From IMG/VR virus record IMGVR_UViG_3300017565_000001, positions 141,741 to 205,740 of that record: a stretch of 64,000 nt of DNA; one strand, 5' to 3'. The notes under the pieces are model-generated. The model did no database searches and was not told the DNA's origin. It was given only the letters and a program-made list of their open reading frames with translations. Source of the DNA: a virus. Its lineage: Duplodnaviria; Heunggongvirae; Uroviricota; Caudoviricetes. Position 1 is the stretch's first letter; every line of letters begins with the position of its first letter. The translations under genes and the position numbers were made by a program. Positions 39,426-60,871 of this stretch are shown here, in pieces.

Positions 39426-39480
39426 GGGATACCTACAGCAAATCACATTCATCTGCTAATATGAAACCAATGTGTATCCC
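39426..39480 (+). ncRNA. ACAGCAA-scaffold small RNA with GCT anticodon-like loop
   Basis: GGGATAC/GTATCCC closing stem; TTCAT-CTGCTAAT-ATGAA. Confidence 0.55.
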
Positions 39481-39489
39481 GTCAATTTT

Positions 39490-39551
39490 AGGATGTTTGC
39501 AGCAAATCCAATACATTTGACTTTTAATCAAACCCGTAAAAAGACATCCTG
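39490..39551 (+). ncRNA. GCAGCAA-scaffold small RNA with TTT anticodon stem-loop
   Basis: AGGATGT/ACATCCT closing stem; TTTGA-CTTTTAA-TCAAA. Confidence 0.6.
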
Positions 39552-39574
39552 TTAGTTTTCTAGTATAATTCAAT

Positions 39575-39652
39575 GGCGGAGTAGCTCAGCCCGGTAGAGC
39601 ACTGGTCTCATAAGCCAGGGGTCGATGGTTCGAATCCATCCTCTCGCAACCA
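39575..39652 (+). tRNA. tRNA-Met/Ile2(CAT)
   Basis: CTGGT-CTCATAA-GCCAG; imperfect acceptor stem; CCA. Confidence 0.8.
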
Positions 39653-39660
39653 AAATTCCC

Positions 39661-39836
39661 TTAAAGCTGAAATGACCTGTTTTCATAAAGCAGGTTGGAT
39701 TCTGCGTCTGATGGTTCTGTCAACAGGGACCGAATCATTCGTCGAGTTGTCTTCAGCTATCTGGTAGGCTACCCGGTCGTAAGGGCGGGCAAGGTGGGTT
39801 CGACCCCCGCAGGCAGCGTACAGAATCCAGCTTTAA
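39661..39836 (+). ncRNA. structured RNA with internal T-arm
   Basis: TTAAAGCTG/CAGCTTTAA and GGATTCTG/CAGAATCC enclosing stems; GTGGG-TTCGACC-CCCGC. Confidence 0.5.
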
Positions 39837-40163
39837 GTGAATTTAAGAATACCTGGTGAACGGGTTGTGTGTAGTCCCTTCGAAAGAAGACGGCTTTTAT
39901 ATTCATAGCGGGCGTTTTCAGTTGAGAACGTGTGATGATTTTGGCAAGAAAACATCACGGCATAAGCGTACAGAGTGGCCCAAACATATCGTACGCAGTT
40001 GAAGTAACCATGCGGGTTGTCTACCTTTTGGATAATCCACACCTCCAAGGATATATTAACTTTGAGTAGGCTGGGACTTTCAATTCTGTGAGTCAGGCTG
40101 AGGCGAAGTGAACGTATTCTTTGGTTATGATTCAGCCGTTGGTTGGCGTAACAACCACCCTAT

Positions 40164-40357
40164 ACGGGGATAGCTCAGAGGTAGTAGGTATGGGACTGAC
40201 TCGCGCAGTTAGTTACCGCCCGCCAATAAACTCATAGGTTCAGGCAGTCGTGGAGTTGATATCACCACAGTGGCTGGCGCTGAAATGAAAGCTTTGTTGG
40301 AAGAGCGTCGGCTTGATAAGCCGAAGGTCGGTGGTTCGAATCCATCTCCCCGTACCA
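40164..40357 (+). tRNA. tRNA-Ile(GAT) with ~118-nt insertion in the D-loop
   Basis: ACGGGGA TA GCTCAG [insert] TTGGAA GAGC, TCGGC-TTGATAA-GCCGA, T-arm, TCCCCGT A CCA. Confidence 0.8.
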
Positions 40358-40623
40358 TTGCCCTATAATCAAGCATCACTTGTGGTATTTGATTATGCGG
40401 CAAAACCCCTTGGCAGGGGTCCAGTACGTGTGGTAGGTAGAGTTTAAAACGTTATCAGACTTATGTGAGTGATATTGGCTTTTTAGCTGATACACAGGGC
40501 ATTGGGGAAACTTAATGTCAAAAGCGGCCCGGATAAAATATCGAGCACCCTCGAGGCAAGGTCTGTAACAGAAAATATACCGAGACAAAGGATATGATCG
40601 CGGGAGTAGCTACCCATTGATGA

Positions 40624-40929
40624 ATGCCCTCATCCACTGTTGCAAACTGGGCTTTAGTTTTGCCGCAACCTTATAACCACCTTATGTGCGACTGTACCAT
40701 TTGCTCACGTCATAAACGAATGAACGAAATCATGTCAAAGCTAGACCCAGAGGACCGGGAATGGCTGCAAACAATGATGGGATATTTGCTTGACATTGAA
40801 GCAGATGTGGAGTATCATAAGGCTATACTTAATGGCGCTTTGCCAAGCTCAGAAGAAATTTTGAAGAAAGCTCTTCATAAGCTTTACGCTATACGAGCAA
40901 ACAACGATCCTGTGGTCCGAGAGGCTTAG
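40624..40929 (+). CDS. hypothetical protein (likely start MCDCTIC at ~40684)
   Basis: ORF track; 3' end overlaps tRNA-Cys. Confidence 0.5.
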   Translation: MPSSTVANWALVLPQPYNHLMCDCTICSRHKRMNEIMSKLDPEDREWLQTMMGYLLDIEADVEYHKAILNGALPSSEEILKKALHKLYAIRANNDPVVREA

Positions 40930-40981
40930 GCGGCTGGCTGCAACCCAGCACACGGTGGTTCGAATCCACCCGGGATCTCCA
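40906..40981 (+). tRNA. tRNA-Cys(GCA)
   Basis: cloverleaf, U73, CCA. Confidence 0.9.
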
Positions 40982-41017
40982 AACAATAAGGGCGATGACT
41001 TAGTCATCGCCCTTCGT

Positions 41018-41515
41018 TCATACGAACAACCATTCATGTGCTCGTTTAGCAGTCCATGACGCTTGAGTATAATTGCTCACCTGCAAAATATCAGTCCACG
41101 AAGTATTGTTCAAACTGCCCTGGAAATACCAGGTATTTGGTGAATACTGGGCATAATTTGGAATTTGCGAGGTGTCACAATACAATACCGTTCGGTTGAT
41201 GGAATACACAGCACCAAGATCTACTGACAACCATTGTGGGTTCGTCGCTACGTTCGTCTGCCATCTGGGTTGGGCCAATGTGGCTGGAACTATACCATCA
41301 AAAGCACCAGAAGGGTTTCCAAAACCAGCATCGCTGGCGGTAGCGGTTCTACCTCGAGCCCTATTAACATTCGATGCATCGTATAATTCCCACTCACCAA
41401 CTGTTATGGCAGCTGATTGGTTTCTAGCCGTAATCATCATTCGATAATATCGATACGGCACAACTGGTTTGGCCCTTTTTGAAAAGTCCAACAATAGTTG
41501 GCGTCCAATCTTCAT
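41018..41515 (-). CDS. discoidin / F5-8 type C domain protein
   Basis: N.ARG.TATAS...AFDG ... PQWLSVDLG ... W.FQGS.NN..WT. Confidence 0.8.
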   Translation of the reverse strand: MKIGRQLLLDFSKRAKPVVPYRYYRMMITARNQSAAITVGEWELYDASNVNRARGRTATASDAGFGNPSGAFDGIVPATLAQPRWQTNVATNPQWLSVDLGAVYSINRTVLYCDTSQIPNYAQYSPNTWYFQGSLNNTSWTDILQVSNYTQASWTAKRAHEWLFV

Positions 41516-42003
41516 GTCAACATCTCTTTAAGGACTAGATGCGCGAAGCCTGTACTTGGCACGTTCTTAATAATCGTCCAAGTAGAATTGTTATTGGACC
41601 CTTCGATTGAAATACTCGTTGGTTGTCTACCAAAGTCGGTTGGGCACGCAATCTTCACACTGCCGATAACTTTGGATGCAGTCAGATCAACGGACCACCA
41701 GCATGATCTATTCGCATTGGGGGAATTGTTGGCGGCGCCACACCACATGCTTGTAGTCGCTGATGATATGACGCCGTCAATGGGCCCAACTATTCTGTAT
41801 GTTGCGTCATAAACGCTTGATGCGAAACATGGTGTGGTACCCAAAACACACAAATTGGATCCAGTGGTAGTGGTGCGTATTTCCACTTCACTAATAGTAG
41901 GGTACTGTCCACCAGCAAGTAATACGATTCGAACGTATCGATAAGAATTTGCCGGAGGGGCCGGCCGTTTACTCGCCAGCAAAAGTCTTTGAGAAATCGT
42001 CAT
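41512..42003 (-). CDS. discoidin / F5-8 type C domain protein (paralog)
   Basis: YRYVRI ... WWSVDL ... IEGSNNNSTWT. Confidence 0.75.
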   Translation of the reverse strand: MTISQRLLLASKRPAPPANSYRYVRIVLLAGGQYPTISEVEIRTTTTGSNLCVLGTTPCFASSVYDATYRIVGPIDGVISSATTSMWCGAANNSPNANRSCWWSVDLTASKVIGSVKIACPTDFGRQPTSISIEGSNNNSTWTIIKNVPSTGFAHLVLKEMLT

Positions 42004-42098
42004 AACGCTATAGTTGACCGTTCGATATCAAAATTGTAGTTTAATATTTATGGTGGCGCACCATACTAAATAAAATGCACACATAATTAGGCGCAAAC

Positions 42099-42581
42099 AT
42101 GAGTCAACCAACATATCAAAAACTGGCTGGAACCCTGAGCAATTCCTTCAAGGTCGGGAAGGGCGGCATCACGGTATCACAGGGAACAGATGACCCTAAT
42201 ACCGCCACAATCACAGGAAAATCTGGTGATCTGTACATTCAACGCGGATCAACTGTCAAGGTGTTTGAATATCGATCAAGCTGGGAACCATTGGGTTCCC
42301 GGGTAACGCGATCCGTCGTGACTGGTGCAACGGCAACCTTGACAAATGCCCAGCATTACGTGGGAGTTTCGTTTGACGGATCCGTAACTTTAACTTTGCC
42401 AACTGGTACCGAAGGCAAACAGTTTATCATCAAAGACGAAGGTGGATTCGTATCAGAAACGAACGTTCTGACTATTCAAGCCACATCTGGTCAACAAATA
42501 GACGGAGCCACATCATTGGACATAACCACCGCAAGGGGTAGCGTAACATTGATTTTTGGTTCTGATTGGAACGTCGTTTGA
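42099..42581 (+). CDS. virion-associated protein
   Basis: TAAATA box; V.LTLPT..G..FIIKDEGG......I.G..IDG motif. Confidence 0.65.
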   Translation: MSQPTYQKLAGTLSNSFKVGKGGITVSQGTDDPNTATITGKSGDLYIQRGSTVKVFEYRSSWEPLGSRVTRSVVTGATATLTNAQHYVGVSFDGSVTLTLPTGTEGKQFIIKDEGGFVSETNVLTIQATSGQQIDGATSLDITTARGSVTLIFGSDWNVV

Positions 42582-42738
42582 TCTGACAGTTTTCAACAAA
42601 GAGCGACTAAATTAGTCGCTCTTTTGCCATGTCAACCTCAAATAGGTATTGACTTATGAATGGCAGTCATGCACACTAAATACAAATGCAACGAGATAGA
42701 CTTGTTGCGCCACCCTCTACATAGGAATTATGTGAGCC

Positions 42739-43149
42739 ATGAATACCAAATCCAAGTACGAAACCTTTACCCAAAACTGCCACAGTGGCCGCCAACTTCT
42801 CGAAAAGCATAGCCTTAGCGAAGAAGGTTTGTGGCAAGTGTACGGCGAAGATTCAAATGCTGACTTTCATGGTTCGCATCACCAACCCCTCATCGGCACG
42901 TTCCAGGGCAAACTCCAAGACGTCATCCGCCACGCAGTGATGATGAATAGCTTCTGGCAATGGGGCGCTGGTGGCAACATCAAGAAACTTGACATCGCAA
43001 CGATCGACATGGCCCATGTCGAAGCCAAGGAAGCAGAGGAACGCGCCCTCCTTCTCGCCCAGGCCGAACAAGAACGAGCTCGTTTGCTTCAACAAATGGA
43101 ACGTGAGCGCGCCCAACTCGACGCCAAAATCAATCAACTCCGCAGATAA
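42739..43149 (+). CDS. hypothetical protein with coiled-coil C-terminus
   Basis: ORF; preceded by GATAGAC hairpin. Confidence 0.7.
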   Translation: MNTKSKYETFTQNCHSGRQLLEKHSLSEEGLWQVYGEDSNADFHGSHHQPLIGTFQGKLQDVIRHAVMMNSFWQWGAGGNIKKLDIATIDMAHVEAKEAEERALLLAQAEQERARLLQQMERERAQLDAKINQLRR

Positions 43150-43209
43150 CCGCAGTACCACGCCAGCAGATAGACTTCTGGCGTCTTTTCTCATAGGAAC
43201 TATGAAACC

Positions 43210-44283
43210 ATGTCTTACAAGCACGACACCCTCATCTACATCGGACGCTTCCAACCCTTCCATAATGCCCACCTGCAGACGATTCTGCACGCCCTGACGC
43301 TCGCTGAACGAGTGGTTGTGGTGATCGGCAGTGCCAACCAACCACGTGATGACGCCAACCCGTTCACTGCCGCGGAACGCGAGCAGATGATCACGGCTTC
43401 CCTGAAAGAAGCAGGCTACGATCTGAGAGCTCACGCCCACAAGGATCGCGTCCGTTTCACCTACGTGGAAAACACCATCTACAACAACCCCCTGTGGGCT
43501 CTGAATGTGGTAAAGGGCGTGGAAGAACACCAGGTCGGCACTGACGTCAAGCTGATCGGTCACACTAAGGATGAATCCAGCTTCTATCTGAAGATGTACC
43601 CGCAATGGGGCACGCCCATCGAAATGCCACTGGTTGAAGTTCTGGATGCGACTACCATCCGCAGCATGTACTTCAGTGACAAGTGCAATCTGAATTTCTT
43701 CAAGAGCGTTGCACCCCACGCGGTAGTGGACTTCTTGGGGACGTTCATGCAAACGGACACCTACAAGTACATCGTGGAAGAAAGCGAATACATTCGCAAC
43801 TACCGCAAGCAATTTGAACACCTCAAATATCCACCCACGTTCGTGACTGGTGATGCCGTAGTGTTCAAGGACAACCACGTGATCATGATCGAACGCCGCG
43901 CAGCGCCAGGCAAGGGCCTGATGGCTATCCCCGGTGGCTTCATGAATGCTAATACCGATCCTGACGCTATGGAAACGGCAATTCGCGAACTGTTCGAAGA
44001 AACCAAGATCAAGGTTCCCGAGAAGATCGTTCGCAAAAGCATCGTGGAAGAAAAGATCTTCAGCGCGCTCAACCGTAGCCGCCGTGGCCGTGTGATCACT
44101 ATCGCGCAATTCATCAACCTGGATGATCCGGACAATCCCGGCCTGCCCAAGTTGAAGGGCAGTGATGACGCAGTCAAGGCAGTGTGGGTTCCCCTGCACC
44201 AGATCTCACGCCAGAATTGCTTCGAGGACCACTACGACATCCTGACCTACTTCATGGGTCGATACAACAATCGCGCCCGATAA
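43210..44283 (+). CDS. nadM: bifunctional NMN adenylyltransferase / ADP-ribose pyrophosphatase (NadM-Nudix)
   Basis: IGRFQPFHNAH (HxGH-type), GSAN..NPF, PGGF......AIRELFEET Nudix box, GSDDA. Confidence 0.95.
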   Translation: MSYKHDTLIYIGRFQPFHNAHLQTILHALTLAERVVVVIGSANQPRDDANPFTAAEREQMITASLKEAGYDLRAHAHKDRVRFTYVENTIYNNPLWALNVVKGVEEHQVGTDVKLIGHTKDESSFYLKMYPQWGTPIEMPLVEVLDATTIRSMYFSDKCNLNFFKSVAPHAVVDFLGTFMQTDTYKYIVEESEYIRNYRKQFEHLKYPPTFVTGDAVVFKDNHVIMIERRAAPGKGLMAIPGGFMNANTDPDAMETAIRELFEETKIKVPEKIVRKSIVEEKIFSALNRSRRGRVITIAQFINLDDPDNPGLPKLKGSDDAVKAVWVPLHQISRQNCFEDHYDILTYFMGRYNNRAR

Positions 44284-44344
44284 AATGCTTGATTTTGTTG
44301 CCAGTTGATACCAAACTGGCAACACTTCTTCTCAAAGGACACAA

Positions 44345-44617
44345 ATGCCCTGTTATGATGGACGCGATTCGCAAGCGGCGATCGCAATTGAGCAACGCGA
44401 AGAAATCGCGTTCCTGGAAGCTGCACTTTGCGCGACCCTCCGCGCCCTGGATGCAACAGCAGCCAAACAAAAAGATCTCGTCAAGATTCTCGGTCCCTCC
44501 GATGATGGCGTGGTCAACTATCCCCTGATCGACTACGAACGCGCGGGCATTTCCAAGGAGCGCCTGCGCGAGTGGTGGAACGTTCACCGCAAGCGTGACT
44601 CGGTCACTGGTAACTGA
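44345..44617 (+). CDS. hypothetical protein
   Basis: AAGGA RBS; WW..HRK.D C-terminus. Confidence 0.65.
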   Translation: MPCYDGRDSQAAIAIEQREEIAFLEAALCATLRALDATAAKQKDLVKILGPSDDGVVNYPLIDYERAGISKERLREWWNVHRKRDSVTGN

Positions 44618-44696
44618 ACACTCATGCTGAAGATGGTCTTCAGCAGAGAACCCTCAACGGATAGACCGTTGAGCCAACTTAGATAGGGAATCTATC

Positions 44697-46175
44697 ATGT
44701 TTGAAAATATCCTTCCTTCCAACTTCATCCTTGCTTGTGACACGTACAAGTTCGACCACTGGGCCCAGTACCCCGCCGACACGGAGCAAATCTATGTTGT
44801 CGTGGTGCCTCGCAAGCCCAGCAAGTATGCTGACAAGATCGTGGCAATGGGCCAAACGTTCGTGGCTGAAATTCTGGCCAACGTCCGTATTACCATGGAC
44901 ATGATCGACGAAGCCGAACTGGAAGTGAACCAACAAGGCTATGACTTCAACCGTTCCGGCTGGGAATATATCGTCAAGGAATTTGGCGGTCGTCTCCCAC
45001 TCCAAGTCTTCGCGGTCGAAGAAGGTCGTATCGTTTTGCCCCAAACGCCTGTCATGGGTCTCATCAATACTGGCGGCAAGCCTAACGCTTGGTTGCCTGG
45101 CTATGTGGAAACGTGGGTCCAGCAAATCGTGTGGAAAATGTCGACTGTCTCGAGTGTTGCTCGCGCTTGCCGACTGACCATTCGCGAATACATGGAAGCC
45201 ACCAGCTCATCCCTCGCAGGCCTGGATTGGGCGCTCCACAACTTCGGCGATCGTGGTGCTGACAGCCCCGAAGAAGCACCTGTCATGGCTGGTATCGGCC
45301 ATGCAGCTCTGTTCAACGGTTCCGACTGCGCCCGTAGCAACCGTTTCATCAAGAAGATGTACGGTTACGACAAGGCCGCCACCAGTTCCGTCATCGCAAC
45401 TGAACACTCCAGCATGTGCGCCAATTCCGACGCCCGTGAAAAGGATGACTTCGGTGCTGCTCTGATGGCCGTTGAACGTCTGGAACACGCTGTGAAGCGC
45501 ACCCAGAACGGTATTGGTGTACCCGTGGTTTCCGCTGTGATCGACACCTACGATCCGCGCCGCTTTGTGCGCGATTACATGGGTGATCGTCTCAAGGATC
45601 GCATCGTTAATTCCGGTGGGAAGATGGTGATGCGTCCTGATAGCGGCGATGTTCTGGTCGAACCATCCATGGTCGCCCGTGACATCGAAGCCACCTTCGG
45701 AGCCCCGCTGAACAGCAAGGGTTACAAGGAATTCCCCGCTTACGTGGGTGAAATCCAAGGTGACGGCGTAAAGGTCACCACCGTTGGTCCCATCCTGAAG
45801 GCTTTCGCTGACAGTGGCTTTGCTACTGCTGGCCTAGTCCTGGGTATGGGTGGTGGTATTACCCATGAAGGCGGTCGTGATGACTTCAGCTTCTCCATGA
45901 AGGCTATTGCCCGTTTCGACGGCACTCGCTGGATTCCGATGTTGAAGGAACCCAAGACCGACACCAGCAAGAAGTCGCTCACTGGTCTCGTTCGTTGCCG
46001 TGAAAACGCTGACGGCGAACTGGAAGTCTTCGATGCCCTGAAGGGTGGTCAACTTCACAGCTTCCTGAAGCCCTGCGCAGGTTGGCAGCTCTGGGTTGAA
46101 AACGGTTATCGCGTCTACCGTCAAAAGTGGGACGATGTCCGTGCTCGCGCCCGTGCTGACAGTCCGTCGGTCTAA
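44697..46175 (+). CDS. nadV: nicotinamide phosphoribosyltransferase (NAMPT)
   Basis: DTYKF.H, LHNFGDRG, ATEHS, IDTYD, RPDSGD, QGDG, GMGGG, FSMKA, K.S..G. Confidence 0.93.
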   Translation: MFENILPSNFILACDTYKFDHWAQYPADTEQIYVVVVPRKPSKYADKIVAMGQTFVAEILANVRITMDMIDEAELEVNQQGYDFNRSGWEYIVKEFGGRLPLQVFAVEEGRIVLPQTPVMGLINTGGKPNAWLPGYVETWVQQIVWKMSTVSSVARACRLTIREYMEATSSSLAGLDWALHNFGDRGADSPEEAPVMAGIGHAALFNGSDCARSNRFIKKMYGYDKAATSSVIATEHSSMCANSDAREKDDFGAALMAVERLEHAVKRTQNGIGVPVVSAVIDTYDPRRFVRDYMGDRLKDRIVNSGGKMVMRPDSGDVLVEPSMVARDIEATFGAPLNSKGYKEFPAYVGEIQGDGVKVTTVGPILKAFADSGFATAGLVLGMGGGITHEGGRDDFSFSMKAIARFDGTRWIPMLKEPKTDTSKKSLTGLVRCRENADGELEVFDALKGGQLHSFLKPCAGWQLWVENGYRVYRQKWDDVRARARADSPSV

Positions 46176-46262
46176 GGTCTGATGTGGTTGATGGGGAGAC
46201 AATTGTCTCCCCATCATTTTGTGCTTGACGCCAAATGATTACCATCTTAAACTGGCGACATC

Positions 46263-46646
46263 TTGTTAAAGGAGACTCAAATGAACTTCGCAACCCGTGC
46301 CCTGCTCGACGTTCTCGCCAAGTTTGCTCCCCATGCTATGCCCAAGATGCCCGAGCAGGAAGTCCACAAACCTCAGGGTGGCTGGGTGGAAATCATCATG
46401 GACCTCGGCGGGCGTGAAATGAAAAAGGCCGACTGGTGCCACGTACTGGATGGTGGTCACATCATGTACGAAGTGCGTCTCGCCATGGCAATCCGTGACG
46501 AGCTGATGGCTCGTTGCAATACCGCTCCCAACCTGGAGCAAATCTACATGTGGGAATCCATGGCTGCCGGTCATACCGACTATAGCACCAAGCTGGCCCG
46601 CAAGTGCTACGAATTCGAAATGGCAGTCGTAAGGACGATTCAATGA
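46263..46646 (+). CDS. hypothetical protein
   Basis: AAGGAG RBS before ATG ~46281; HTDYSTK motif. Confidence 0.65.
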   Translation: MLKETQMNFATRALLDVLAKFAPHAMPKMPEQEVHKPQGGWVEIIMDLGGREMKKADWCHVLDGGHIMYEVRLAMAIRDELMARCNTAPNLEQIYMWESMAAGHTDYSTKLARKCYEFEMAVVRTIQ

Positions 46647-47101: not shown

Positions 47102-47111
47102 TAAGGCAAGC

Positions 47112-47783: not shown

Positions 47784-47823
47784 TAACGATCACACACGCA
47801 ATCAACAAAATCAAAGGATAGCG

Positions 47824-48030
47824 ATGAGCTACAAAACTGAGATCACCATCACGGTTCCCCAGCTGAAAGAGATGCTGACCAACCAATTGGCATCCATGTA
47901 TCCCAATCACACCATCAAAGATGTTCGCTTCACCATTAGTGGTAGTGGCGATGATCGCTTTGGTTCGTCATTCCCCACGGTGCAGGATGTGCGGGTAGAG
48001 ATGGTTCCCAAGAACACCACCAACTACTAA
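47824..48030 (+). CDS. hypothetical protein
   Basis: AAGGA RBS. Confidence 0.6.
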   Translation: MSYKTEITITVPQLKEMLTNQLASMYPNHTIKDVRFTISGSGDDRFGSSFPTVQDVRVEMVPKNTTNY

Positions 48031-48092
48031 GCGTTGACTTGATCGCCATATGAATGTATCGTACACACATACATTCATATGGGAGAACGATC

Positions 48093-50532: not shown

Positions 50533-50544
50533 ATGGGAGGGATA

Positions 50545-51948: not shown

Positions 51949-52024
51949 TTACAAGTGTACGTTCAGCTTAGGGTTGTTCATAGTGAGCCTTGATGCTACT
52001 ATGAAGCGCACAATGGAGGGGTTG

Positions 52025-53387: not shown

Positions 53388-53872
53388 AAACGCTTCTGTA
53401 GGTGATACTGATAGGCCTCCAGATACTGACTACGGGTTTGTCCTTCAGCTTCCAAGACCCCTTGCAATAGCCTGGGGTCTTGTAGTTTGAACGTACTGTA
53501 GCCCAAGCACAGACCACCGGAATCGGGCAAGAAGTATAGTTCCTGGTGACCGAGTTCGATGGTTGCGATGTTACTCGTTTGAATGAATATTGGTTCATTA
53601 TTCCAGTAGAACACTCGTCCCATTACTTCGGGATTCACTCCGTAAACCACCTTTTCCAATACTCCACCATTGCGACGTTCAGCCGCTCGCCTATCTCGCA
53701 TTTGCTTTAATGCTTGCCGAAACCACGGTAATGGAACGACCGCCGACTCAATATCAGCATCGGTCAAATCATCAATTCGGTCAACTAGGGCTTGAACTTC
53801 TGGTTTTCTTTTTGCCTCATAAGTCAAAAGTCCCTCAAGTGACTGTCCACGCATAAATACCTCCATTAACAC
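53384..53872 (-). CDS. hypothetical late protein
   Basis: ORF; TAAATA on the - strand upstream. Confidence 0.6.
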   Translation of the reverse strand: MLMEVFMRGQSLEGLLTYEAKRKPEVQALVDRIDDLTDADIESAVVPLPWFRQALKQMRDRRAAERRNGGVLEKVVYGVNPEVMGRVFYWNNEPIFIQTSNIATIELGHQELYFLPDSGGLCLGYSTFKLQDPRLLQGVLEAEGQTRSQYLEAYQYHLQKRF

Positions 53873-53895
53873 TTCAGTTATTTAAGGTAGGGATC

Positions 53896-54627
53896 ATGCG
53901 TGATTTCATCAACGTATTTGACAAGGTATTGAGAGAATTTCAAGTTGGTGCCATTAGCCCAACTTGGTTTAATGGTGCAAAACCAGAGGTTAGCGAACTC
54001 GTTAACCGTTTTATTGATGGATTGAATAGTTCTGAATTCCATGGCTGGTACTGGAATGTAAGTGGCGGTCCGGGCCTTTCTGCAAAACTGTTCACGGGCG
54101 TAAACCCAGAAACCATGGAAATTCGTGGATACTTGGTTTACGACAAACAAGATGGTCTCAAGCAAGAAGAACTTTATAGCTTGAAGGATATCCTGAACCA
54201 TATGCGCCATATGGGTTCCAGTAACCTAGCAGCAAAGCTGGAAGAAGTGGGAGTCAAGGCTCTCAACGAGCAGCAGCGCGCACTAGACGAAAGCTATGGT
54301 CGTGGTTGGGCAATTCTACCAGCAACCATGGTCCTTTATGGCAAGCGAACAGTCGACATCAAGACCGCAGCATCTGAATGGGATGACAGTGTCATCTATG
54401 TTTGTGGTAAAGAAGAAAACGGTAAGAATCGAATCCTGTTTCTGGCCTCAAGTGGTGATCTGGGCATCAAGGTGGGTACTAGCAGCGAAACGTACCACGA
54501 TCAAACTGGTGCAAGCAAAGGCGTTTATACTGTCCTGAACATTGTCCACATTGTTGATGGCGAAATTGTCAGCAAGGTGAACGATATTGGTCTGAATGTA
54601 AAAGCCAGCTTGGCCGTCTTCAAATAA
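53896..54627 (+). CDS. hypothetical late protein
   Basis: ATAAATA at ~53853. Confidence 0.7.
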   Translation: MRDFINVFDKVLREFQVGAISPTWFNGAKPEVSELVNRFIDGLNSSEFHGWYWNVSGGPGLSAKLFTGVNPETMEIRGYLVYDKQDGLKQEELYSLKDILNHMRHMGSSNLAAKLEEVGVKALNEQQRALDESYGRGWAILPATMVLYGKRTVDIKTAASEWDDSVIYVCGKEENGKNRILFLASSGDLGIKVGTSSETYHDQTGASKGVYTVLNIVHIVDGEIVSKVNDIGLNVKASLAVFK

Positions 54628-54636
54628 GGAATAATT

Positions 54637-55101
54637 ATGCGATACAGTGAACTCACACAATTGAACGAAAGTTCGGAATATCATGTCCGTATCAGGACAC
54701 AAAAGTCATCTCAAGAAGTCATTACTGAAATTTCTGATTTGATGAAAAAATGTGCTGCATTTGGTAAGCAGTTTATCACCAAGGATTCATCAACACCGGG
54801 TGGTCCCGATACTACTAAGTTCCGGGCATCCAACTGGGGCGGCATTGCATTCCATCGTGACTTTCAAGTCGGTAATTCGGTATACAAGTCGTTTCTGAAG
54901 ATCGGTACTGGTCTTGCTGATCGCGGTGATATCAAAGTTTGGGATATGTTCAAGAAAGAATTTACCCAGTACATAGGTCAGAAGATGGGAGCAATGTCAA
55001 CCACGTTTGAATGTCCGGATGGTACTGTTACAGTATATCCCAAGCATGGCACTAACTGGGGTGGTTACGGTATTCACTATTCCGACTACGTCTACAAATA
55101 A
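54637..55101 (+). CDS. hypothetical late protein
   Basis: AAGGA RBS; MRYSELTQLNE N-terminus. Confidence 0.7.
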   Translation: MRYSELTQLNESSEYHVRIRTQKSSQEVITEISDLMKKCAAFGKQFITKDSSTPGGPDTTKFRASNWGGIAFHRDFQVGNSVYKSFLKIGTGLADRGDIKVWDMFKKEFTQYIGQKMGAMSTTFECPDGTVTVYPKHGTNWGGYGIHYSDYVYK

Positions 55102-55186
55102 GGTTCAAACACGCTATACTGCGAACTATAAAACATTAGACTATTTGGCGTGCAAATAATAGAGTAATACCGAATAGGAGAAGCTC

Positions 55187-55417
55187 TTGAAATTGCACGT
55201 TTTGGATTATTGTGGTGAATACGGGGAATGCACGGTCTTTTTCGGCAACAACCTTACCAAGCCAATTGACATCATTGATGGAAACGATGCCACTTGGCGC
55301 CACGAATATTTTAATCCAGTTCTAGCACAAGTCGGAGTTGAGGTTGTTCACCTTCGTCAAGATAGCTTTGATGAAGCAGCACTTGAGGCCATGGTCGCGG
55401 AGTATTACGGTTATTGA
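55187..55417 (+). CDS. hypothetical protein
   Basis: AGGAG RBS, TTG start. Confidence 0.55.
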   Translation: MKLHVLDYCGEYGECTVFFGNNLTKPIDIIDGNDATWRHEYFNPVLAQVGVEVVHLRQDSFDEAALEAMVAEYYGY

Positions 55418-55487
55418 TAAATAAATTTGACTACTGGCAGGAAAGCAGTAGAATAGAGTTCTGATGCAGCAACAGCGCATCAACAAT

Positions 55488-55564
55488 CTGAGCGTAGGTC
55501 AGTCTGGTAGACCGCTTGCTTTGGGAGCAAGATGTCGGGAGTTCGAATCTCTCCGTTCAGACCA
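55488..55564 (+). tRNA. tRNA-Pro(TGG)
   Basis: cloverleaf, CCA, terminator after. Confidence 0.95.
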
Positions 55565-55690
55565 ATACAGAAAGCCCGTCAAATTGACGGGCTTTCGTTC
55601 ATCCAAGTTTTACGATTCTTGTTCATTTGACGTTTGCATTCCTTGCCATATGGCATTACATTAATGCTTTGCTGACAACCCGAGAACTCG

Positions 55691-56191
55691 ATGAACAAAG
55701 AACAAATCCTCAAGCTCGCCGCTGAAGTAGCCCTTGACCTGAAGCTGGTTTGGTACAGTGGTGACAAGAAGGTATTTGTTGGTGGCAACGATGCCGAAAA
55801 GGGTATTTGGGAACGAACTATTCGTGGTTCTGACAAGGACACGTTGGTGGAAGCCTTGATGAAACATCCGCTGATCGCCAGCGAAGTCACGACACTCGTT
55901 CTTTCCGGTGATTATCGGGAGACTCATACTCTCATCTCCAACATGTGCTTCAAATTCACTAAGCCACTCTTCCGTAAGGAATTGAAGGCTGAGATCGCCA
56001 AGCGTGGCGAAGGTTGTATGGCCGTTCAGGCAGAAACCAAGGTTATGATTTGGCAGCGTGAAGGCCAGGAAGTTCGCACCCAGATCGAAACATTCCGCAA
56101 AACCCTGTCCACAGCCCAGATTGCTGAATTTGAAAGCATCCTGAGCAAGGTCGAGACCCGTATGCGGGTGACCGAAGGAAGCCACTGGTGA
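55691..56191 (+). CDS. hypothetical protein, paralog A1
   Basis: I..LAA.V.....LVW...D..VFVG. Confidence 0.7.
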   Translation: MNKEQILKLAAEVALDLKLVWYSGDKKVFVGGNDAEKGIWERTIRGSDKDTLVEALMKHPLIASEVTTLVLSGDYRETHTLISNMCFKFTKPLFRKELKAEIAKRGEGCMAVQAETKVMIWQREGQEVRTQIETFRKTLSTAQIAEFESILSKVETRMRVTEGSHW

Positions 56192-56715
56192 TGAACCTCA
56201 ACGGAATGGGTGAACGCATCCGTGAAATCGCGGCCGACATCTTGATTCAAAACAAGATGGTGTGGGTTGACTACGGTGGCCATATCTATGTGGGGAAAAC
56301 CACGGATGGTCAATTTGAGGTTGATATTACCGCACACGAATTGTTCGAGTTAGCTTATGCTGTCATGGATCACCCAGAAATCAACCCCACGGTCATTGCT
56401 AGAAAGTTGAGTGACGACGGGATTGACTCAATAAAGAGTGAAGTGTGTGGTCATCTATTGAATGATGGCCATTTCAGCACAATCAAATGGATGCTACAAC
56501 AACGATTTGTCGAATATGGCAAAGCAAGTGGCATCTTAGTCAATCCAATTTTTCCTGACACCAAAGCTATGGCTATGCGCATCATGGATGATTGCGCAAT
56601 CATCGAAACGTTGGTAGGCCCAGAACATGAAATCATTATCAAGGCTCTCCGACAAAATTCCTGGGGTTTGATCTCCATTGTCGAACCGATGCCTGATGAG
56701 GATGACGACGAATGA
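56188..56715 (+). CDS. hypothetical protein, paralog A2
   Basis: IREIAADI.....MVWVDYGG.IYVG. Confidence 0.7.
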   Translation: MMNLNGMGERIREIAADILIQNKMVWVDYGGHIYVGKTTDGQFEVDITAHELFELAYAVMDHPEINPTVIARKLSDDGIDSIKSEVCGHLLNDGHFSTIKWMLQQRFVEYGKASGILVNPIFPDTKAMAMRIMDDCAIIETLVGPEHEIIIKALRQNSWGLISIVEPMPDEDDDE

Positions 56716-57212
56716 AAGAAGCAAAGAACAAAATCATCGAATTTGTTACCACCAAACTTCTCACGGACGGCATGACGTGGATTGATATTGATGGCACGAT
56801 TCGGTTCGGCCTCAATAATCCATCCGTCAATCAATACTCGGAAAACGTCCGTTCATTTTTGCATTATCCATGCGGGTCGGCTGTACTCACGTTGTTGAAG
56901 AACGACCCAGAAATGGACGCAGTTATGACCATGCAATGCCTCCAGTACAGCCAATCTCAATTGGTCAATCGGCTGGGTAACATGATTTCTTCTTGGAAGG
57001 GTGAGATTATTCCCATTGCTCGAGCCAAGGTTCTCGCTAGTGGTGTTGAAAAATATCCACAACGTCGGCCATCCAAACGTGACATTCGCAGGCAAGAATT
57101 GAAAGACGCCCGCGAACAACTGATGGCATTCGAGCAAAAGCTATCACCAGAACGTCAAGTTGAACTTCAGAGCATCATTAGTAAACTCAACAAATTCATG
57201 AAGGAAATCTAA
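56712..57212 (+). CDS. hypothetical protein, paralog A3
   Basis: IIEFVTTKL....MTWIDIDG.IRFG. Confidence 0.7.
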   Translation: MKEAKNKIIEFVTTKLLTDGMTWIDIDGTIRFGLNNPSVNQYSENVRSFLHYPCGSAVLTLLKNDPEMDAVMTMQCLQYSQSQLVNRLGNMISSWKGEIIPIARAKVLASGVEKYPQRRPSKRDIRRQELKDAREQLMAFEQKLSPERQVELQSIISKLNKFMKEI

Positions 57213-57655
57213 TGAGTGAAATTGTGACCCTCAAGCAATTCAAATATCGCAGTCAGACTATCAAGTGGTCCTTTTGGTTAGTCATTGGCTATTGCGCATG
57301 GTTTTTCTTATGCGAGGGAATGGATTATCTGGTCGCAAAAGGTGGCAATCCCAGTAGTTCGTATACAAGTGACATTCACGTCACTCCCGTTACTGTTGAA
57401 TCAAACAATGGATGTACTGGCGGTAAGGGATCTTCATGCAATTACACGATTGCATGGTCGAATGGTGAACGCTATTACATTCAGAGCTCGAACGCTTACG
57501 CTGTCGGCCAAACTATCTACCATTCGGCATGGACCAACGCTGACGGGAAAACTTTCTATCGATATAGCTGGTCACCCGCCAAGAATGAAACGCCCCCAAC
57601 CTGGCTGTCAAAATATTTCATGAAGGACAACAGTGTCAAGCGCAACAAAGACTAA
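57212..57655 (+). CDS. membrane-anchored exported protein
   Basis: N-terminal TM helix, Cys pair. Confidence 0.6.
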   Translation: MSEIVTLKQFKYRSQTIKWSFWLVIGYCAWFFLCEGMDYLVAKGGNPSSSYTSDIHVTPVTVESNNGCTGGKGSSCNYTIAWSNGERYYIQSSNAYAVGQTIYHSAWTNADGKTFYRYSWSPAKNETPPTWLSKYFMKDNSVKRNKD

Positions 57656-57917
57656 GGAAAAGAAGCCCAAAGTTAAGGCAAGTGACAGTGCCAAAGCGTA
57701 CACCTACAACTTGCCTTCTGGTCCTCTACCTGCAAGGGATTTCTTTCGATCAATCATTGCTGAGGTTCCTGAGGAGAAGATTCTGCAATACGACCATGAA
57801 AACGGGCATATCACTCGTGAAGCGCTTCTTCAGTCGATTGATGATGACACAGAATTGGCAAAACGATTCATCACCGACATGATGCGAATCACTCGTGACA
57901 TGATGATTTACCGATAA
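57633..57917 (+). CDS. hypothetical protein
   Basis: AAGGA RBS, GTG start. Confidence 0.55.
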   Translation: MSSATKTKEKKPKVKASDSAKAYTYNLPSGPLPARDFFRSIIAEVPEEKILQYDHENGHITREALLQSIDDDTELAKRFITDMMRITRDMMIYR

Positions 57918-57987
57918 CCAGGTTCCCTTGATCCCCAGTTGCCATTCCTTTAGATTGACTGGTAACTTATCTTCATGTTGATAAACC

Positions 57988-58359
57988 GTGAACATTCTGT
58001 CCAAAATAATTAAATTCTTCCAGACACTCACTGCACCGTTAAAAAATCAGCCCATTGAAAAATGGCTGCTGGTGCGAACGTATGTGGTGGATGTTACCGT
58101 CACCCGCTCACCAGAAACAGACAGAGTAGGTGAAACTGGATTCGCGTATGCTTACATGTTTGAATCCGAATCTGGTAAGCGGCGAGTTGAATTTGGATGC
58201 AGTCTTTCTGGCTTTGATGCCGAGACATCATTCAAGAAATTGCGAGACTGGGCCGAACATGTTTATCCATGGGTGAATGGTCGGTATTTGGCCAATACGC
58301 CAACTTATTCCGAAGCTGAAAGCTTGGATGTTGCGGCAAGGCTCAAGGATTGTTCATGA
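57988..58359 (+). CDS. hypothetical protein, paralog B1
   Basis: FESESGKRRVE ... YPWVNGRY...P.Y. Confidence 0.7.
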   Translation: MNILSKIIKFFQTLTAPLKNQPIEKWLLVRTYVVDVTVTRSPETDRVGETGFAYAYMFESESGKRRVEFGCSLSGFDAETSFKKLRDWAEHVYPWVNGRYLANTPTYSEAESLDVAARLKDCS

Positions 58360-58703
58360 AGACACTTCAAACATGGTTCAAAAATCTGTTCACCCGCAAG
58401 CGTGAATACCTGGTACATACCCTTGAACTGACTATCACAATCAATTACGTGAATCAGTTCAAAGAAGTCAGTTATACGGAAAACGACGTAATGTTTCGCA
58501 TCCACTTGTTTGAATCAAACAAAGGCAAGCGACGTTATGAAGTTTTCTGTACCAGTAGTCGTTGTGATGCTCAGGGAATCGTAAAACGTCAGACTGAGTT
58601 CCACGATATTGTATATCCATGGCTTCATGGGCGATATGTTGAAGGTATCCCTCATTACACACAAGTCGCAGCAGAAGACCTCATGAAAAAGTTGGGTGAA
58701 TAA
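58356..58703 (+). CDS. hypothetical protein, paralog B2
   Basis: FESNKGKRRYE ... YPWLHGRY..IP.Y. Confidence 0.7.
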   Translation: MKTLQTWFKNLFTRKREYLVHTLELTITINYVNQFKEVSYTENDVMFRIHLFESNKGKRRYEVFCTSSRCDAQGIVKRQTEFHDIVYPWLHGRYVEGIPHYTQVAAEDLMKKLGE

Positions 58704-59038
58704 TGAATTGGCTGAAGAAACTCTTTACTCCTGAACCTCCCCCACCACCTCCGCCGCCGCCCGAGCATTGGCTTCATGTTCACATGATTGAAGAGAAGCG
58801 TAAAGTGGAGGATCGGGATGTTCTGTTCTATCTTCATTTTTATGAATCCAATCGTGGAAACCGTAAGGTTGAACTGACTAGTTCATACTATGATGAATGT
58901 AAGGCATCTACCTTTCTGGGACAGATGTTTGCATACAACACCAAAGCCAGACCATGGTTAAGTGGTCGCTACGACCCTGATATTCCACGTTATGTGGAGG
59001 TACCAGCCGTGGATGTGGCCAACAAGTTATCACAATAA
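58703..59038 (+). CDS. hypothetical protein, paralog B3
   Basis: YESNRGNRKVE ... PWLSGRY...IP.Y. Confidence 0.7.
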   Translation: MNWLKKLFTPEPPPPPPPPPEHWLHVHMIEEKRKVEDRDVLFYLHFYESNRGNRKVELTSSYYDECKASTFLGQMFAYNTKARPWLSGRYDPDIPRYVEVPAVDVANKLSQ

Positions 59039-59140
59039 TGGTTACAAGGTGGCGATGAATATTCATCGCCATTCACTTGACTGGCATTTTCTTTCGTGTA
59101 TCATTCACATACGGTAAACGAAACGGCAAAGGAGCCATAA

Positions 59141-59323
59141 ATGAGCAAGTCCTACAAGCACATGAACGCAGAAACGGCCGAACGTGCTCGCAACGTGAAG
59201 AACGCTCGTCGCAACCGCCAAAATCTGCGTTCGCAGTTCAGCGGCATGGACCCCGACTCCACCATGGAACGCCATGTTGAACTGGCGATGGCTCGCGCCC
59301 CGCGCAATAAATCCAGCTACTAA
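59141..59323 (+). CDS. hypothetical basic protein
   Basis: AAGGAG RBS. Confidence 0.6.
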   Translation: MSKSYKHMNAETAERARNVKNARRNRQNLRSQFSGMDPDSTMERHVELAMARAPRNKSSY

Positions 59324-59631
59324 TGGCTGATGATAGTACTCAAGAGCTCAGCTTTGTCTGGGCTCTTTCGCCACCTGATCTCCTGAACGATATGGACAAG
59401 GCTTGGGCCAAAGCCAAGTTTGGTATTGAATACCAAACCGGTTATGTGATTCAGATTGCCAAAGAGTTCGTCTTTGATAATTCCTGGGTTCAACCTCTTT
59501 TCACGGTTGCGTTCTTTGAACGCTCTGGTGCATACGGCGAAGAGTTCACGTCTATTACGATTCGCAGGACCACCTTTGTTCACACATACAACGTTGAACT
59601 GGCAATGATGTTGAAACTGATGTTGCGTTGA
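59323..59631 (+). CDS. hypothetical protein
   Basis: C-terminal ELAMMLKL. Confidence 0.6.
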   Translation: MADDSTQELSFVWALSPPDLLNDMDKAWAKAKFGIEYQTGYVIQIAKEFVFDNSWVQPLFTVAFFERSGAYGEEFTSITIRRTTFVHTYNVELAMMLKLMLR

Positions 59632-59637
59632 TACAAC

Positions 59638-59958
59638 ATGACTGACTCACGCTACGAATTTCAAGATCCTGATTTTCCCATGTTCGTTGGTCCTGGGGGC
59701 TTCTTCACCAAAGCGGTTGTTGAAAAATGGTGCAAGCGCGAACCATTGATGCGGGGTGGAATCATATTTCAGATTTCTGATAAATTCTGGGATGGTCCAT
59801 ACAACAGTGACATTGGTCCCAAGTACATCGAACCCTTGAAGTCGATATTGGACTCAGACCCAAGACGCCGCATCTATGTGTCTGCTGGTTTGCAGCACTT
59901 TGTATGGACGGATTCTCCCGACAGTCAGACTGCTCTGATGTTAGCCCTTTACCCATAA
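59638..59958 (+). CDS. hypothetical protein
   Basis: ORF track. Confidence 0.6.
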   Translation: MTDSRYEFQDPDFPMFVGPGGFFTKAVVEKWCKREPLMRGGIIFQISDKFWDGPYNSDIGPKYIEPLKSILDSDPRRRIYVSAGLQHFVWTDSPDSQTALMLALYP

Positions 59959-60191
59959 TTCATATGAAATTTGAAAAGATTGCCCAAGATGCTCTGCATT
60001 TGTCCAAGAACATGACCGAGGCAGAACTTATCGCCACAATCAAATCCCTAGAGGATCGAATCGAGCGATACAAGATCACAGTCGTCAACTACCCACCTGA
60101 ACGCATGAAGAAACATGGCGAGCCTTACCTAACATATCTGAGGGACAAGCTTGCCACCTTTGTTGATGAGCTAAAGAGTCGCCAACCATAA
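59904..60191 (+). CDS. hypothetical protein (start likely MKFEK ~59964)
   Basis: ORF track. Confidence 0.55.
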   Translation: MDGFSRQSDCSDVSPLPIIHMKFEKIAQDALHLSKNMTEAELIATIKSLEDRIERYKITVVNYPPERMKKHGEPYLTYLRDKLATFVDELKSRQP

Positions 60192-60220
60192 TTGCTATCC
60201 TGTTGCCATTCCTATAGAGT

Positions 60221-60436
60221 ATGGTCTCAAAGGAGGCCTTCTTTATGGCACAAACACTAACTCTGGAAGAATTTGACGAGCAATTCAATGGTGCGCCCAT
60301 TGACTTGGAAGAGCTGGCACGATACGCCACAAGCGTCGAAGACGACGTAGAACTCGCTGACGCAGCTGACGCCTTTTTGGAATCTATGGAAGACTTCCGT
60401 TCTGAACTGGCTGCACGAAATATTGAGTTAGGTTGA
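60221..60436 (+). CDS. hypothetical acidic protein (start likely MAQT)
   Basis: AAGGAGG RBS. Confidence 0.6.
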   Translation: MVSKEAFFMAQTLTLEEFDEQFNGAPIDLEELARYATSVEDDVELADAADAFLESMEDFRSELAARNIELG

Positions 60437-60624
60437 AGATTTCAAAGCTTCGTCATAAATATGTTGACAAGCAAAACGATTGTGCGTAAAGTACGATCTC
60501 GCAAGTGAGAAATCACAAGCAACAAGAAATTTGAGATGACATCAAAAAGTTCTTGCAAGTTTGGCAAGCAATTGTTAGACTTGAAACTGTTGTAGGTTGT
60601 TTCTAACGAAGCAGCTTGCAATTT

Positions 60625-60871
60625 AGGATTGGTACAGCAAACTCCAAAATCTACTTAACCGTCGATGTTGCTGGACTTAATCGTTGCTGAGGAAACTCAG
60701 CAGGGCATCTGGGGTCTTGAATGACTCCGTATAGATGACCCCATTCCGCAAGGGTGTTGATTAAGGTGTGCGGCAACTAGGTTCATGACCGAAATCATGA
60801 TATTGTTGGTAGAAACCAACGGGGCACGTAGGACCCTGAACGTGTCTTATAGAAGGGGGACCGCAATCCTG
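60625..60871 (+). ncRNA. large ACAGCAA-scaffold RNA with multi-hairpin insert
   Basis: AGGATTG/CAATCCT closing stem, TACAGCAAA, ends ATCCTGTTA like the 39490 element; at least 5 internal hairpins. Confidence 0.55.

What the first reader, a model, noticed from the sequence alone, without database searches (positions are those of the whole stretch)
39426..60871. Family of GGAT..(A/G)CAGCAA..ATCC scaffold RNAs carrying anticodon loops or a large payload
Three elements share a 7-bp closing stem starting GGAT, an unpaired ACAGCAAA/GCAGCAAA immediately 3' of it, and (for two) the end ATCCTGTTA. The element at 39490-39551 displays a perfect tRNA-Lys(UUU) anticodon stem-loop. The one at 39426-39480 displays a Ser(GCU)-like loop. 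The one at 60625-60871 encloses about 230 nt of hairpins and sits just before attenuator 2. Inference: these are miniature anticodon decoys or sponges for anticodon nucleases (tRNA-Lys(UUU) is the PrrC/AriB target, and no full Lys(TTT) tRNA is in this window), built on a reusable protein-bound scaffold.
Basis: partly seen in the sequence, partly recalled or inferred. Interest (0 to 1): 0.72.

Follow-up and report, generated by a model that had tools for sequence, protein, structure and literature searches.

The report
Phage Y-RNA-like handle carrying anticodon-arm mimics
Three small RNA genes in this huge phage share a conserved stem-plus-motif "handle" that travels across hundreds of phages with a gene for a Ro60-like RNA-binding ring protein, and two of them display copies of tRNA anticodon arms, so they look like a new kind of phage Y RNA that may bait or tether enzymes that read tRNA anticodons.

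Summary
Window 39426-39484, 39490-39554 and 60625-60874 share a 7-bp terminal stem, two unpaired bases, RCAGCAAA and a GUYA tail. The 424-kb phage holds at least nine such elements, all on the + strand.

The family is widespread. A handle pattern hit at least 118 IMG/VR contigs, and the stem covaries. A variant handle sits in the tRNA cluster of E. coli phage ekra (Felixounavirus).

The handle is linked to a 471-aa DUF2828/DUF7788 protein whose model has the Ro60 fold (Foldseek E 1e-10 to 1e-6). Of 50 handle-bearing records, 32 encode it. Of 73 loci chosen by the protein alone, 50 have a handle RNA within 400 nt upstream on the same strand.

Payloads vary: anticodon-arm mimics, whole circularly permuted tRNA look-alikes, or about 215 nt of hairpins. 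Anticodon-like loops occur in 27 of 80 non-redundant small members against 0.4% of shuffles. UUU and UGU lead, the two prime targets of the PARIS nuclease AriB.

Best reading: a new variant of the Y RNA / Ro60 particle. The decoy function is untested. A splicing role for the handle is not excluded. Earlier agents of this scan reached the same Ro60-linked reading on other DNA; I tested the linkage and fold independently here.

The parts
39426..39484 (+). Small handle RNA E1. Stem 39426-39432 pairs with 39474-39480. Motif ACAGCAAA at 39435-39442. Inner hairpin 39448-39465 with a GCU-containing 8-nt loop. Tail GUCA at 39481-39484.
   Evidence: Sequence; fold; covariance model R1 scores 53 bits, E 8e-11, though the element was in the training set.
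39490..39554 (+). Small handle RNA E2. Stem 39490-39496 pairs with 39544-39550. Motif GCAGCAAA at 39499-39506. Anticodon-arm mimic at 39516-39532 (5-bp stem, loop CUUUUAA, 3' strand giving U36-A-A-U-C-A41). A-rich strand 39538-39543. Tail GUUA at 39551-39554.
   Evidence: Sequence; fold; R1 scores 72 bits, E 2e-15, in the training set; AriB site from PMC12409363.
60625..60874 (+). Large handle RNA E3. Stem 60625-60631 pairs with 60864-60870. Motif ACAGCAAA at 60634-60641. About 215 nt of structured payload at 60642-60863. Tail GUUA at 60871-60874.
   Evidence: Sequence. The minimum-energy fold equals the handle-constrained fold at -84.7 kcal/mol. z = -3.15 against shuffles. No Rfam family matched.

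Best explanation
E1, E2 and E3 are genes for small non-coding RNAs of a widespread, apparently undescribed phage family that works like Y RNAs.

They sit in tRNA arrays and are probably cut out of tRNA-cluster transcripts (inferred). Each folds into a conserved handle: a 7-bp terminal stem, two unpaired bases, single-stranded RCAGCAAA, usually an A-rich opposite strand, and a GUYA tail.

The handle is the likely docking site for the phage's Ro60-like ring protein. That protein carries DUF2828 and DUF7788/vWA domains with a DxSxS metal site, and lies at genome 238107-239522, outside the window. The RCAGCAAA motif occupies the position of the CGAA-type Ro60 contact in bacterial Y RNAs (inferred).

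The rest of each RNA is an exchangeable payload. E2 presents a copy of a bacterial-type tRNA-Lys(UUU) anticodon arm. E1 presents a GCU-type arm. E3 presents a large structured module. Other members present whole, circularly permuted tRNA look-alikes.

I propose that the particle uses the payload to tether or trap a factor that recognises tRNA anticodon arms. The most attractive candidate is an anticodon nuclease of host defence.

Shown: the RNA family, its structure, and its genetic linkage to a Ro60-fold protein. Inferred: binding, processing and the tether or decoy function.
For: Family and structure:
- The exact handle occurs three times in the window and at least nine times in the genome, all on the + strand.
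- At least 118 IMG/VR contigs carry it, and 102 of 124 matches have complementary stems.
- Stem pairs 6 and 7 show all four Watson-Crick types across 113 distinct stems.
- On alignment A2, 11 of 12 pairs have double changes and no shuffle of 500 reaches the observed covariation score.

Partner protein:
- The commonest neighbouring protein (35 of 118 loci) has DUF2828, DUF7788 and vWA domains.
- The genome encodes one copy, with handle RNA E9 ending 125 nt upstream on the same strand.
- Its alignment-based model (pLDDT 81.6) matches Ro60 structures over its full length: 9kop, 9l5y, 1yvr, 2nvo, E 9e-11 to 8e-7, TM about 0.55-0.6.
- PHROGs names the family 'RNA-binding protein'. Mycobacteriophage homologs are annotated 'Ro-like RNA binding protein'.

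Linkage in both directions:
- 32 of 50 handle-bearing records encode the protein, and 11 of 15 of those at least 50% complete.
- In 80 loci chosen only by the protein, 60 have a handle RNA on the gene strand against 10 on the other strand.
- 50 of the 73 loci with enough upstream DNA have one ending within 400 nt of the start codon.

Precedent: Y RNAs lie next to and co-oriented with Ro60 genes in bacteria and phages, and YrlA carries a permuted tRNA-like domain (PMC4201824, PMC12135203). The Rfam YrlA model hits the permuted tRNA payloads below threshold (35.5-35.9 bits, E 5e-5 to 2e-4).

Payload: anticodon-type loops occur in 27 of 80 members against 0.4% of shuffles, led by UUU and UGU.
Against: - No binding has been shown.
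- The motif differs from the known Ro60 contacts (GNCGAAN0-1G, or GGUCCGA).
- Pfam TROVE does not hit the genome, and sequence-only matches to Ro60 are not significant (E about 0.8).
- E1-E3 lie 36-57 kb from the protein gene, in tRNA clusters.
- 18 of 50 handle-bearing records show no such gene, although most of those are fragments.
- AriB needs D-loop contacts as well as the anticodon arm (PMC12409363), so an isolated arm may bind it poorly.
- The sample of homologs was drawn with a GGAU-biased pattern.
- Sequences used for covariation were selected for pairing.
Confidence: 0.6

Rival explanations
1. The handle is an intron-like processing module. It holds together the two ends of a circularly permuted or interrupted tRNA gene and is cut away a fixed distance from the stem. 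The payload ends are then sealed by the phage RtcB ligase to give working tRNAs. The small elements would be degenerate or minimal substrates.
For: - Own-genome elements at 232554-233078 and many elements in other phages enclose a T arm and 3' acceptor strand followed by a 5' acceptor strand and D arm. Duplicating them lets ARAGORN find tRNAs with the handle as an 'intron'.
- Cutting 6 nt after the motif and 6 nt before the 3' stem strand restores perfect helices in several. One example is a flawless tRNA-Thr(UGU) with a 7-bp acceptor stem in L098.
- Several capped acceptor stems have a loop that reads N-CCA.
- The same handle sits as a hairpin inside a tRNA gene at genome 209545-209675.
- The phage encodes RtcB.
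- Unexplained tRNA introns are reported in huge phages (bioRxiv 10.1101/356790).
Against: - The 6/6 rule fails for all the own-genome members tested under it.
- Restored helices are equally expected if the handle is simply an extra arm at a three-way junction.
- No splicing endonuclease domain was found, and I saw no bulge-helix-bulge.
- Small members and E3 have no tRNA body to restore, yet they are the commonest class.
- The tight linkage is to a Ro60-fold protein, not to a nuclease or ligase.
- YrlA already shows that permuted tRNA shapes exist as non-decoding mimics.
Confidence: 0.15
2. The elements are free-standing anticodon decoys or sponges that act as naked RNA. The stem serves only to stabilise them and the motif has some other role.
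For: - Anticodon-type loops are enriched.
- None of 41 phage tRNA-Lys(UUU) genes in the sampled loci keeps that site, against 3 of 8 UUU-type small elements.
Against: - Two thirds of small members carry no anticodon-like loop.
- The invariant single-stranded motif and the two-way linkage to a Ro60-fold gene argue for a protein partner.
- The numbers are small.
Confidence: 0.1
3. The elements are decayed tRNA pseudogenes or mere processing punctuation in tRNA arrays, without a function of their own.
For: They sit between tRNA genes with tRNA-like spacing and U-rich flanks.
Against: An invariant motif, compensatory stem changes, presence in over a hundred unrelated contigs and a conserved position upstream of one protein family are not what decay produces.
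Confidence: 0.03

Closest known systems
YrlA-type bacterial and phage Y RNAs with Ro60/Rsr (Rfam RF02553; Chen et al. 2014, PMC4201824; Thermus phage phiLo Yrl1/Yrl2, PMC12135203)
   Same: - The terminal stem is made from the 5' and 3' ends.
- A conserved single-stranded motif sits on the 5' strand next to the stem.
- The RNA is encoded beside and co-oriented with a Ro60-fold gene.
- Some members carry a tRNA-like domain in permuted order with a capped acceptor stem.
- Several different RNAs occur per genome.
   Different: - The motif is RCAGCAAA, not GNCGAAN0-1G or CGAA.
- The Rfam model does not reach its threshold and never matches the handle.
- The protein scores as DUF2828/DUF7788, not TROVE.
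- The handle is grafted at various positions of the tRNA body.
- Many members carry only an anticodon-arm mimic, and copies are scattered through tRNA clusters far from the protein gene.
Permuted and split tRNA genes (Cyanidioschyzon merolae, Thermofilum, Nanoarchaeum) spliced at bulge-helix-bulge motifs and ligated by RtcB
   Same: In some family members the 3' half is encoded before the 5' half, flanking complementary strands bring the ends together, and an RtcB gene is present.
   Different: There is no bulge-helix-bulge and no splicing endonuclease. The context is a bacterial virus. E1-E3 contain no tRNA body.
Phage-encoded nuclease-resistant tRNAs that neutralise PARIS (T5 tRNA-Lys, Thr, Asn; PMC11464382, PMC12409363)
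   Same: The same anticodons (UUU, UGU, some GUU) are prominent, and the genes sit in phage tRNA clusters.
   Different: Those are complete decoding tRNAs that replace cleaved host tRNAs and carry resistant sequences. E2 is an isolated arm that keeps the sensitive sequence and cannot decode.
Stable tRNA-like small RNAs of unknown function in phage tRNA clusters
   Same: Small stable RNAs encoded between phage tRNA genes.
   Different: I did not compare the sequences. No shared motif has been shown.

Membership tests
Y RNA / YrlA (RF02553) | Terminal helix formed by the 5' and 3' ends that carries the protein-binding site | tested here: met
   A 7-bp stem closes all three elements. Covariation is shown.
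Y RNA / YrlA (RF02553) | Conserved Ro60 contact motif GNCGAAN0-1G (bacteria) or GGUCCGA (animals) on the 5' strand | tested here: not met
   The invariant motif is RCAGCAAA. It occupies the same position but has a different sequence (PMC4201824).
Y RNA / YrlA (RF02553) | Score at or above the Rfam gathering threshold (69 bits) | tested here: not met
   E1-E3 give no hit at E up to 10. Permuted tRNA payloads of other family members reach only 35.5-35.9 bits.
Y RNA / YrlA (RF02553) | tRNA-like domain with T arm, D arm and capped acceptor stem | tested here: not met
   E1 and E2 carry only an anticodon-arm-like hairpin, and E3 carries no recognisable tRNA part. Other genome members at 232554-233078 do meet this feature.
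Y RNA / YrlA (RF02553) | Encoded near and co-oriented with a Ro60 gene | tested here: inconclusive
   This is met for the family: 50 of 73 protein-selected loci, always on the same strand. It is met for E9 in this genome. E1-E3 themselves lie 36-57 kb upstream of the gene, on the same strand.
Y RNA / YrlA (RF02553) | Physical binding to Ro60 | not testable with these tools
   Needs EMSA, RIP or a structure.
Ro60 / TROVE proteins (the partner) | HEAT-repeat ring plus vWA domain with a MIDAS site | tested here: met
   The AF2 model has pLDDT 81.6. Foldseek gives full-length matches to 9kop, 9l5y, 1yvr and 2nvo. DxSxS is invariant in alignment A1.
Ro60 / TROVE proteins (the partner) | Pfam TROVE (PF05731) match | tested here: not met
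   No hit in the genome at E up to 0.1. The protein scores as DUF2828 plus DUF7788.
tRNA (RF00005) | Cloverleaf with acceptor, D, anticodon and T arms | tested here: not met
   Neither ARAGORN nor Rfam calls E1-E3 a tRNA. At 55-65 nt with a single inner hairpin there is no room for a cloverleaf.
Permuted or split tRNA genes with BHB splicing | Bulge-helix-bulge at the junction and a splicing endonuclease | tested here: not met
   No PF01974 hit. By inspection the junction strands do not form a 4-bp helix between 3-nt bulges. RtcB is present.

The most novel reading that the evidence does not exclude
The phage Ro60-like ring, loaded through the RCAGCAAA handle, displays host-type anticodon arms. 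These are chiefly Lys(UUU) and Thr(UGU), and E2 carries the U36-A-A-U-C/A41 site cut by PARIS AriB. The particle would act as bait that traps or misdirects anticodon nucleases, while the phage's own tRNAs carry resistant substitutions. That would be an RNA-protein anti-defence particle of a kind not yet described.
Probability: 0.25. Interest if true: 0.9.

Novelty: new variant of a known kind. Interest (0 to 1): 0.72.

Why it matters
Ro60 and Y RNAs are conserved from bacteria to humans, yet what the variable part of a Y RNA recruits is known in very few cases. Here one protein-linked handle is combined with a catalogue of payloads, from bare anticodon arms to whole tRNA shapes, in hundreds of phages.

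The payloads point directly at the tRNA-centred arms race between phages and bacterial defences. The commonest ones match the known targets of PARIS. The family also explains many 'over-long', 'permuted' or 'intron-containing' tRNA calls and unannotated gaps in phage tRNA clusters.

The same system exists in cultured E. coli and Salmonella phages of the Felix O1 group. That makes both the function of the handle and the decoy idea testable with ordinary phage genetics.

Tried and rejected
- **Known RNA families.** Rfam at gathering and at E up to 10 gave nothing for E1-E3. No known self-cleaving ribozyme, RNase P, tmRNA or 6S model matched.
- **Splicing as the main reading.** My first reading was an intron or permuted-gene splicing module. 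I demoted it after the Ro60-fold linkage emerged, and because the 6/6 rule fails on all the own-genome members tested under it.
- **Brute-force splice-site search with ARAGORN.** ARAGORN accepts too many variants, so the search was uninformative.
- **Syntenic relatives through the upstream protein.** The 746-aa upstream protein found no relatives.
- **Nucleotide search of cultured phages.** It found only tRNA matches.
- **Single-sequence structure prediction of the protein.** It failed at pLDDT 36, and an alignment was needed.
- **Sequence search of PDB.** It gave only non-significant Ro60 hits.
- **Identity of the E3 payload.** Alignment with a conserved class of 225-260-nt handle RNAs upstream of Ro60-like genes showed only the handle and one or two hairpins in common. 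I leave it open.
- **The 136-aa ORF on the minus strand over the 3' part of E3.** It has no PHROG match and I treat it as spurious.
- **Literature.** Searches for permuted phage tRNAs, DUF2828, YrlA and phage Ro60 found no description of this handle. Subscription-only papers could not be searched.


Full report
**What is in the sequence**

The window is part of a 424,529-bp IMG/VR phage genome with direct terminal repeats; window position 1 is genome position 141741. ARAGORN finds 29 tRNA genes in the window and 55 tRNA genes plus one permuted tmRNA in the genome.

The three reported elements are exactly as described. Each begins with a 7-nt strand N-GGAU-NN that pairs with NN-AUCC-N' at the far end. 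Two unpaired bases and ACAGCAAA or GCAGCAAA follow the 5' strand. A tail GUUA or GUCA follows the 3' strand.

The 16-base pattern occurs three times in the window with no mismatch, all on the + strand. In the whole genome I found nine members, all on the + strand:
- the three in the window;
- 207024-207084, a close paralog of the first element, with a CAU-type 7-nt loop;
- 209545-209675, where the handle is a hairpin inside a tRNA gene;
- 232554-232727, 232817-232937 and 232947-233078;
- 237892-237981.

The element at 39490 carries a perfect 5-bp stem with the 7-nt loop CUUUUAA. The element at 39426 has an irregular 8-nt loop containing GCU. The element at 60625 encloses about 215 nt. Its minimum-energy fold keeps the handle paired and is more stable than shuffles, z = -3.15.

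**It is a real and widespread RNA family**

In 102 of 124 matches the three unspecified stem positions were complementary.

Across 162 unique elements and 113 distinct stems, the two variable pairs show all four Watson-Crick types. The motif C-A-G-C-A-A is invariant, and the 3' strand before the stem is A-rich.

On a 29-sequence alignment, 11 of 12 pairs of the handle and inner hairpin show double changes. No shuffle of 500 reaches the observed covariation score, and sliding the partners destroys the signal. These sequences were picked for pairing, so the percentage paired is partly by construction; the compensatory changes are not.

No Rfam family matches E1-E3.

**Payloads**

Element sizes fall into classes:
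- about 50-75 nt with one hairpin;
- about 113-170 nt;
- about 225-260 nt.

The middle class holds tRNA bodies in circularly permuted order. Duplicating the own-genome elements at 232554-233078 lets ARAGORN find tRNAs whose 'intron' is the handle.

In several elements of other phages, removing 6 nt after the motif and 6 nt before the 3' strand restores perfect helices. One case gives a flawless tRNA-Thr(UGU). This first made me favour a splicing model.

**The partner protein**

The scan's earlier notes pointed to a Ro60-like neighbour, and I tested this independently.

- Clustering of all ORFs in the 118 loci shows one dominant neighbour, present in 35 loci. It is a protein of about 480 aa with DUF2828, DUF7788 and vWA domains.
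- Wherever a nearest small handle RNA could be assigned (32 of those 35 loci), it lay on the gene's strand, often 30-330 nt upstream.
- This genome has one such gene at 238107-239522, with the ninth handle RNA ending 125 nt upstream.
- Pfam TROVE does not hit, and sequence comparison with PDB is not significant.
- A model built from 26 family members (pLDDT 81.6) matches Ro60 structures over its full length. These include phage phiLo Ro60, Xenopus Ro60 and Deinococcus Rsr, at E 9e-11 to 8e-7.
- The vWA metal site DxSxS is invariant.
- PHROGs calls the family 'RNA-binding protein'.
- 711 cultured phage records encode homologs, including mycobacteriophages annotated 'Ro-like RNA binding protein'.

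**Linkage in both directions**

Of 50 handle-bearing records, 32 encode the protein. That is 11 of 15 at 50% completeness or more, and both of those at 90% or more.

I then took 80 loci chosen only by the protein. Sixty have a stem-plus-motif element on the gene strand, against 10 on the opposite strand. Of the 73 with enough upstream DNA, 50 have one ending within 400 nt of the start codon.

In E. coli phage ekra (Felixounavirus) the gene lies directly upstream of the tRNA cluster. The unannotated gaps of that cluster hold handle RNAs with a variant stem, AGACC paired with GGUCU, and the same motif.

**Comparison with Y RNAs**

Bacterial and phage Y RNAs have these features (PMC4201824, PMC12135203):
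- they are encoded next to and co-oriented with Ro60 genes;
- their terminal stem is formed from both ends;
- they carry a short conserved motif on the 5' strand;
- YrlA carries a permuted tRNA-like domain.

The Rfam YrlA model hits the permuted tRNA payloads of this family only below threshold, and only over the tRNA-like part.

So the family works like a Y RNA but is not a member of YrlA as defined. The motif differs, the protein is a divergent branch, the handle is grafted at different positions of the tRNA body, and many members carry only an anticodon arm.

**The anticodon-display idea**

Among 80 non-redundant small members, 35 have a 7-nt hairpin loop and 27 fit Y-U-NNN-R-N. Shuffled interiors give 5.6% and 0.4%. 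The displayed triplets are led by UUU (8) and UGU (3), and 17 of the 27 have U36-A37-A38.

[quoted passage not shown] It cuts at U36-A-A-U-C/A41, and changes at positions 39 or 41 protect (PMC12409363).

- E2 carries exactly that site.
- The phage's own tRNA-Lys(UUU) genes and tRNA-Thr(UGU) differ at 39 or 41.
- In the sampled loci, none of 41 phage tRNA-Lys(UUU) genes keeps the site, against 3 of 8 UUU-type small elements. These numbers are small.

AriB also needs D-loop contacts that an isolated arm lacks.

**Verdict**

The best explanation is a new variant of the Y RNA / Ro60 particle with exchangeable tRNA-derived payloads. A splicing role for the handle stays open at low probability. What the particle does is unknown.

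Noticed in passing
window 40164-40357: A tRNA-Ile(GAU)-like gene has normal acceptor, anticodon and T arms and a CCA end, but about 105 nt are inserted in the D loop. The insert has no RCAGCAA motif. ARAGORN misreads the gene as tRNA-Ser with a 102-nt intron, and Rfam matches only model positions 6-65.
   Followed up: partly
outside the window: genome 232554-233078 (L131 255-779): Three tandem handle RNAs have payloads that are circularly permuted tRNA look-alikes. One is Glu(CUC)-like and one has a very long variable region. Rfam YrlA hits the middle one at 35.5 bits, below threshold.
   Followed up: partly
outside the window: genome 209545-209675 (L008 1444-1574): A complete tRNA with a CCA end carries the handle as a hairpin, plus a small GNRA hairpin, inserted between the D arm and an anticodon-like arm with loop AUGCUAA. 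It is a tRNA/handle chimera.
   Followed up: partly
L098 889-1001, L101, L062, L063, L076 and others: Removing 6 nt on each side of the handle restores perfect tRNA helices. Several capped acceptor stems have a 4-nt loop reading N-CCA, so one RNase P cut would leave a mature CCA end. I cannot explain this under the pure Y-RNA model.
   Followed up: partly
outside the window: genome 207205-207364 and 169292-169367 (the latter is window 27552-27627): The phage's own tRNA-Lys(UUU) pair and tRNA-Thr(UGU) differ from the E. coli-type U36-A-A-U-C-A41 sequence at positions 39 or 41. Changes at those positions protect T5 tRNA-Lys from AriB.
   Followed up: partly
L212 5343-8500 (Escherichia phage ekra, MN850644.1): The unannotated gaps in the Felixounavirus tRNA cluster, just downstream of the Ro60-like gene, hold handle RNAs with stem AGACC/GGUCU. 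This is a tractable model system.
   Followed up: partly
L142, L144, L146, L154-L157, L160, L162, L167, L173 (alignment A4): A well-conserved class of 225-260-nt handle RNAs lies 80-350 nt upstream of Ro60-like genes in many phages. E3 shares only the handle and one or two hairpins with it.
   Followed up: partly
outside the window: genome 41648-42040, 53129-53203 and 57503-58618: ARAGORN predicts a permuted tmRNA and an amber-suppressor-type tRNA(CUA). An RtcB RNA ligase gene lies nearby.
   Followed up: no
window 43210-46175: Two adjacent genes encode an NMN adenylyltransferase-Nudix fusion and a nicotinamide phosphoribosyltransferase. This looks like an NAD salvage pair of the kind seen in large phages.
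   Followed up: no
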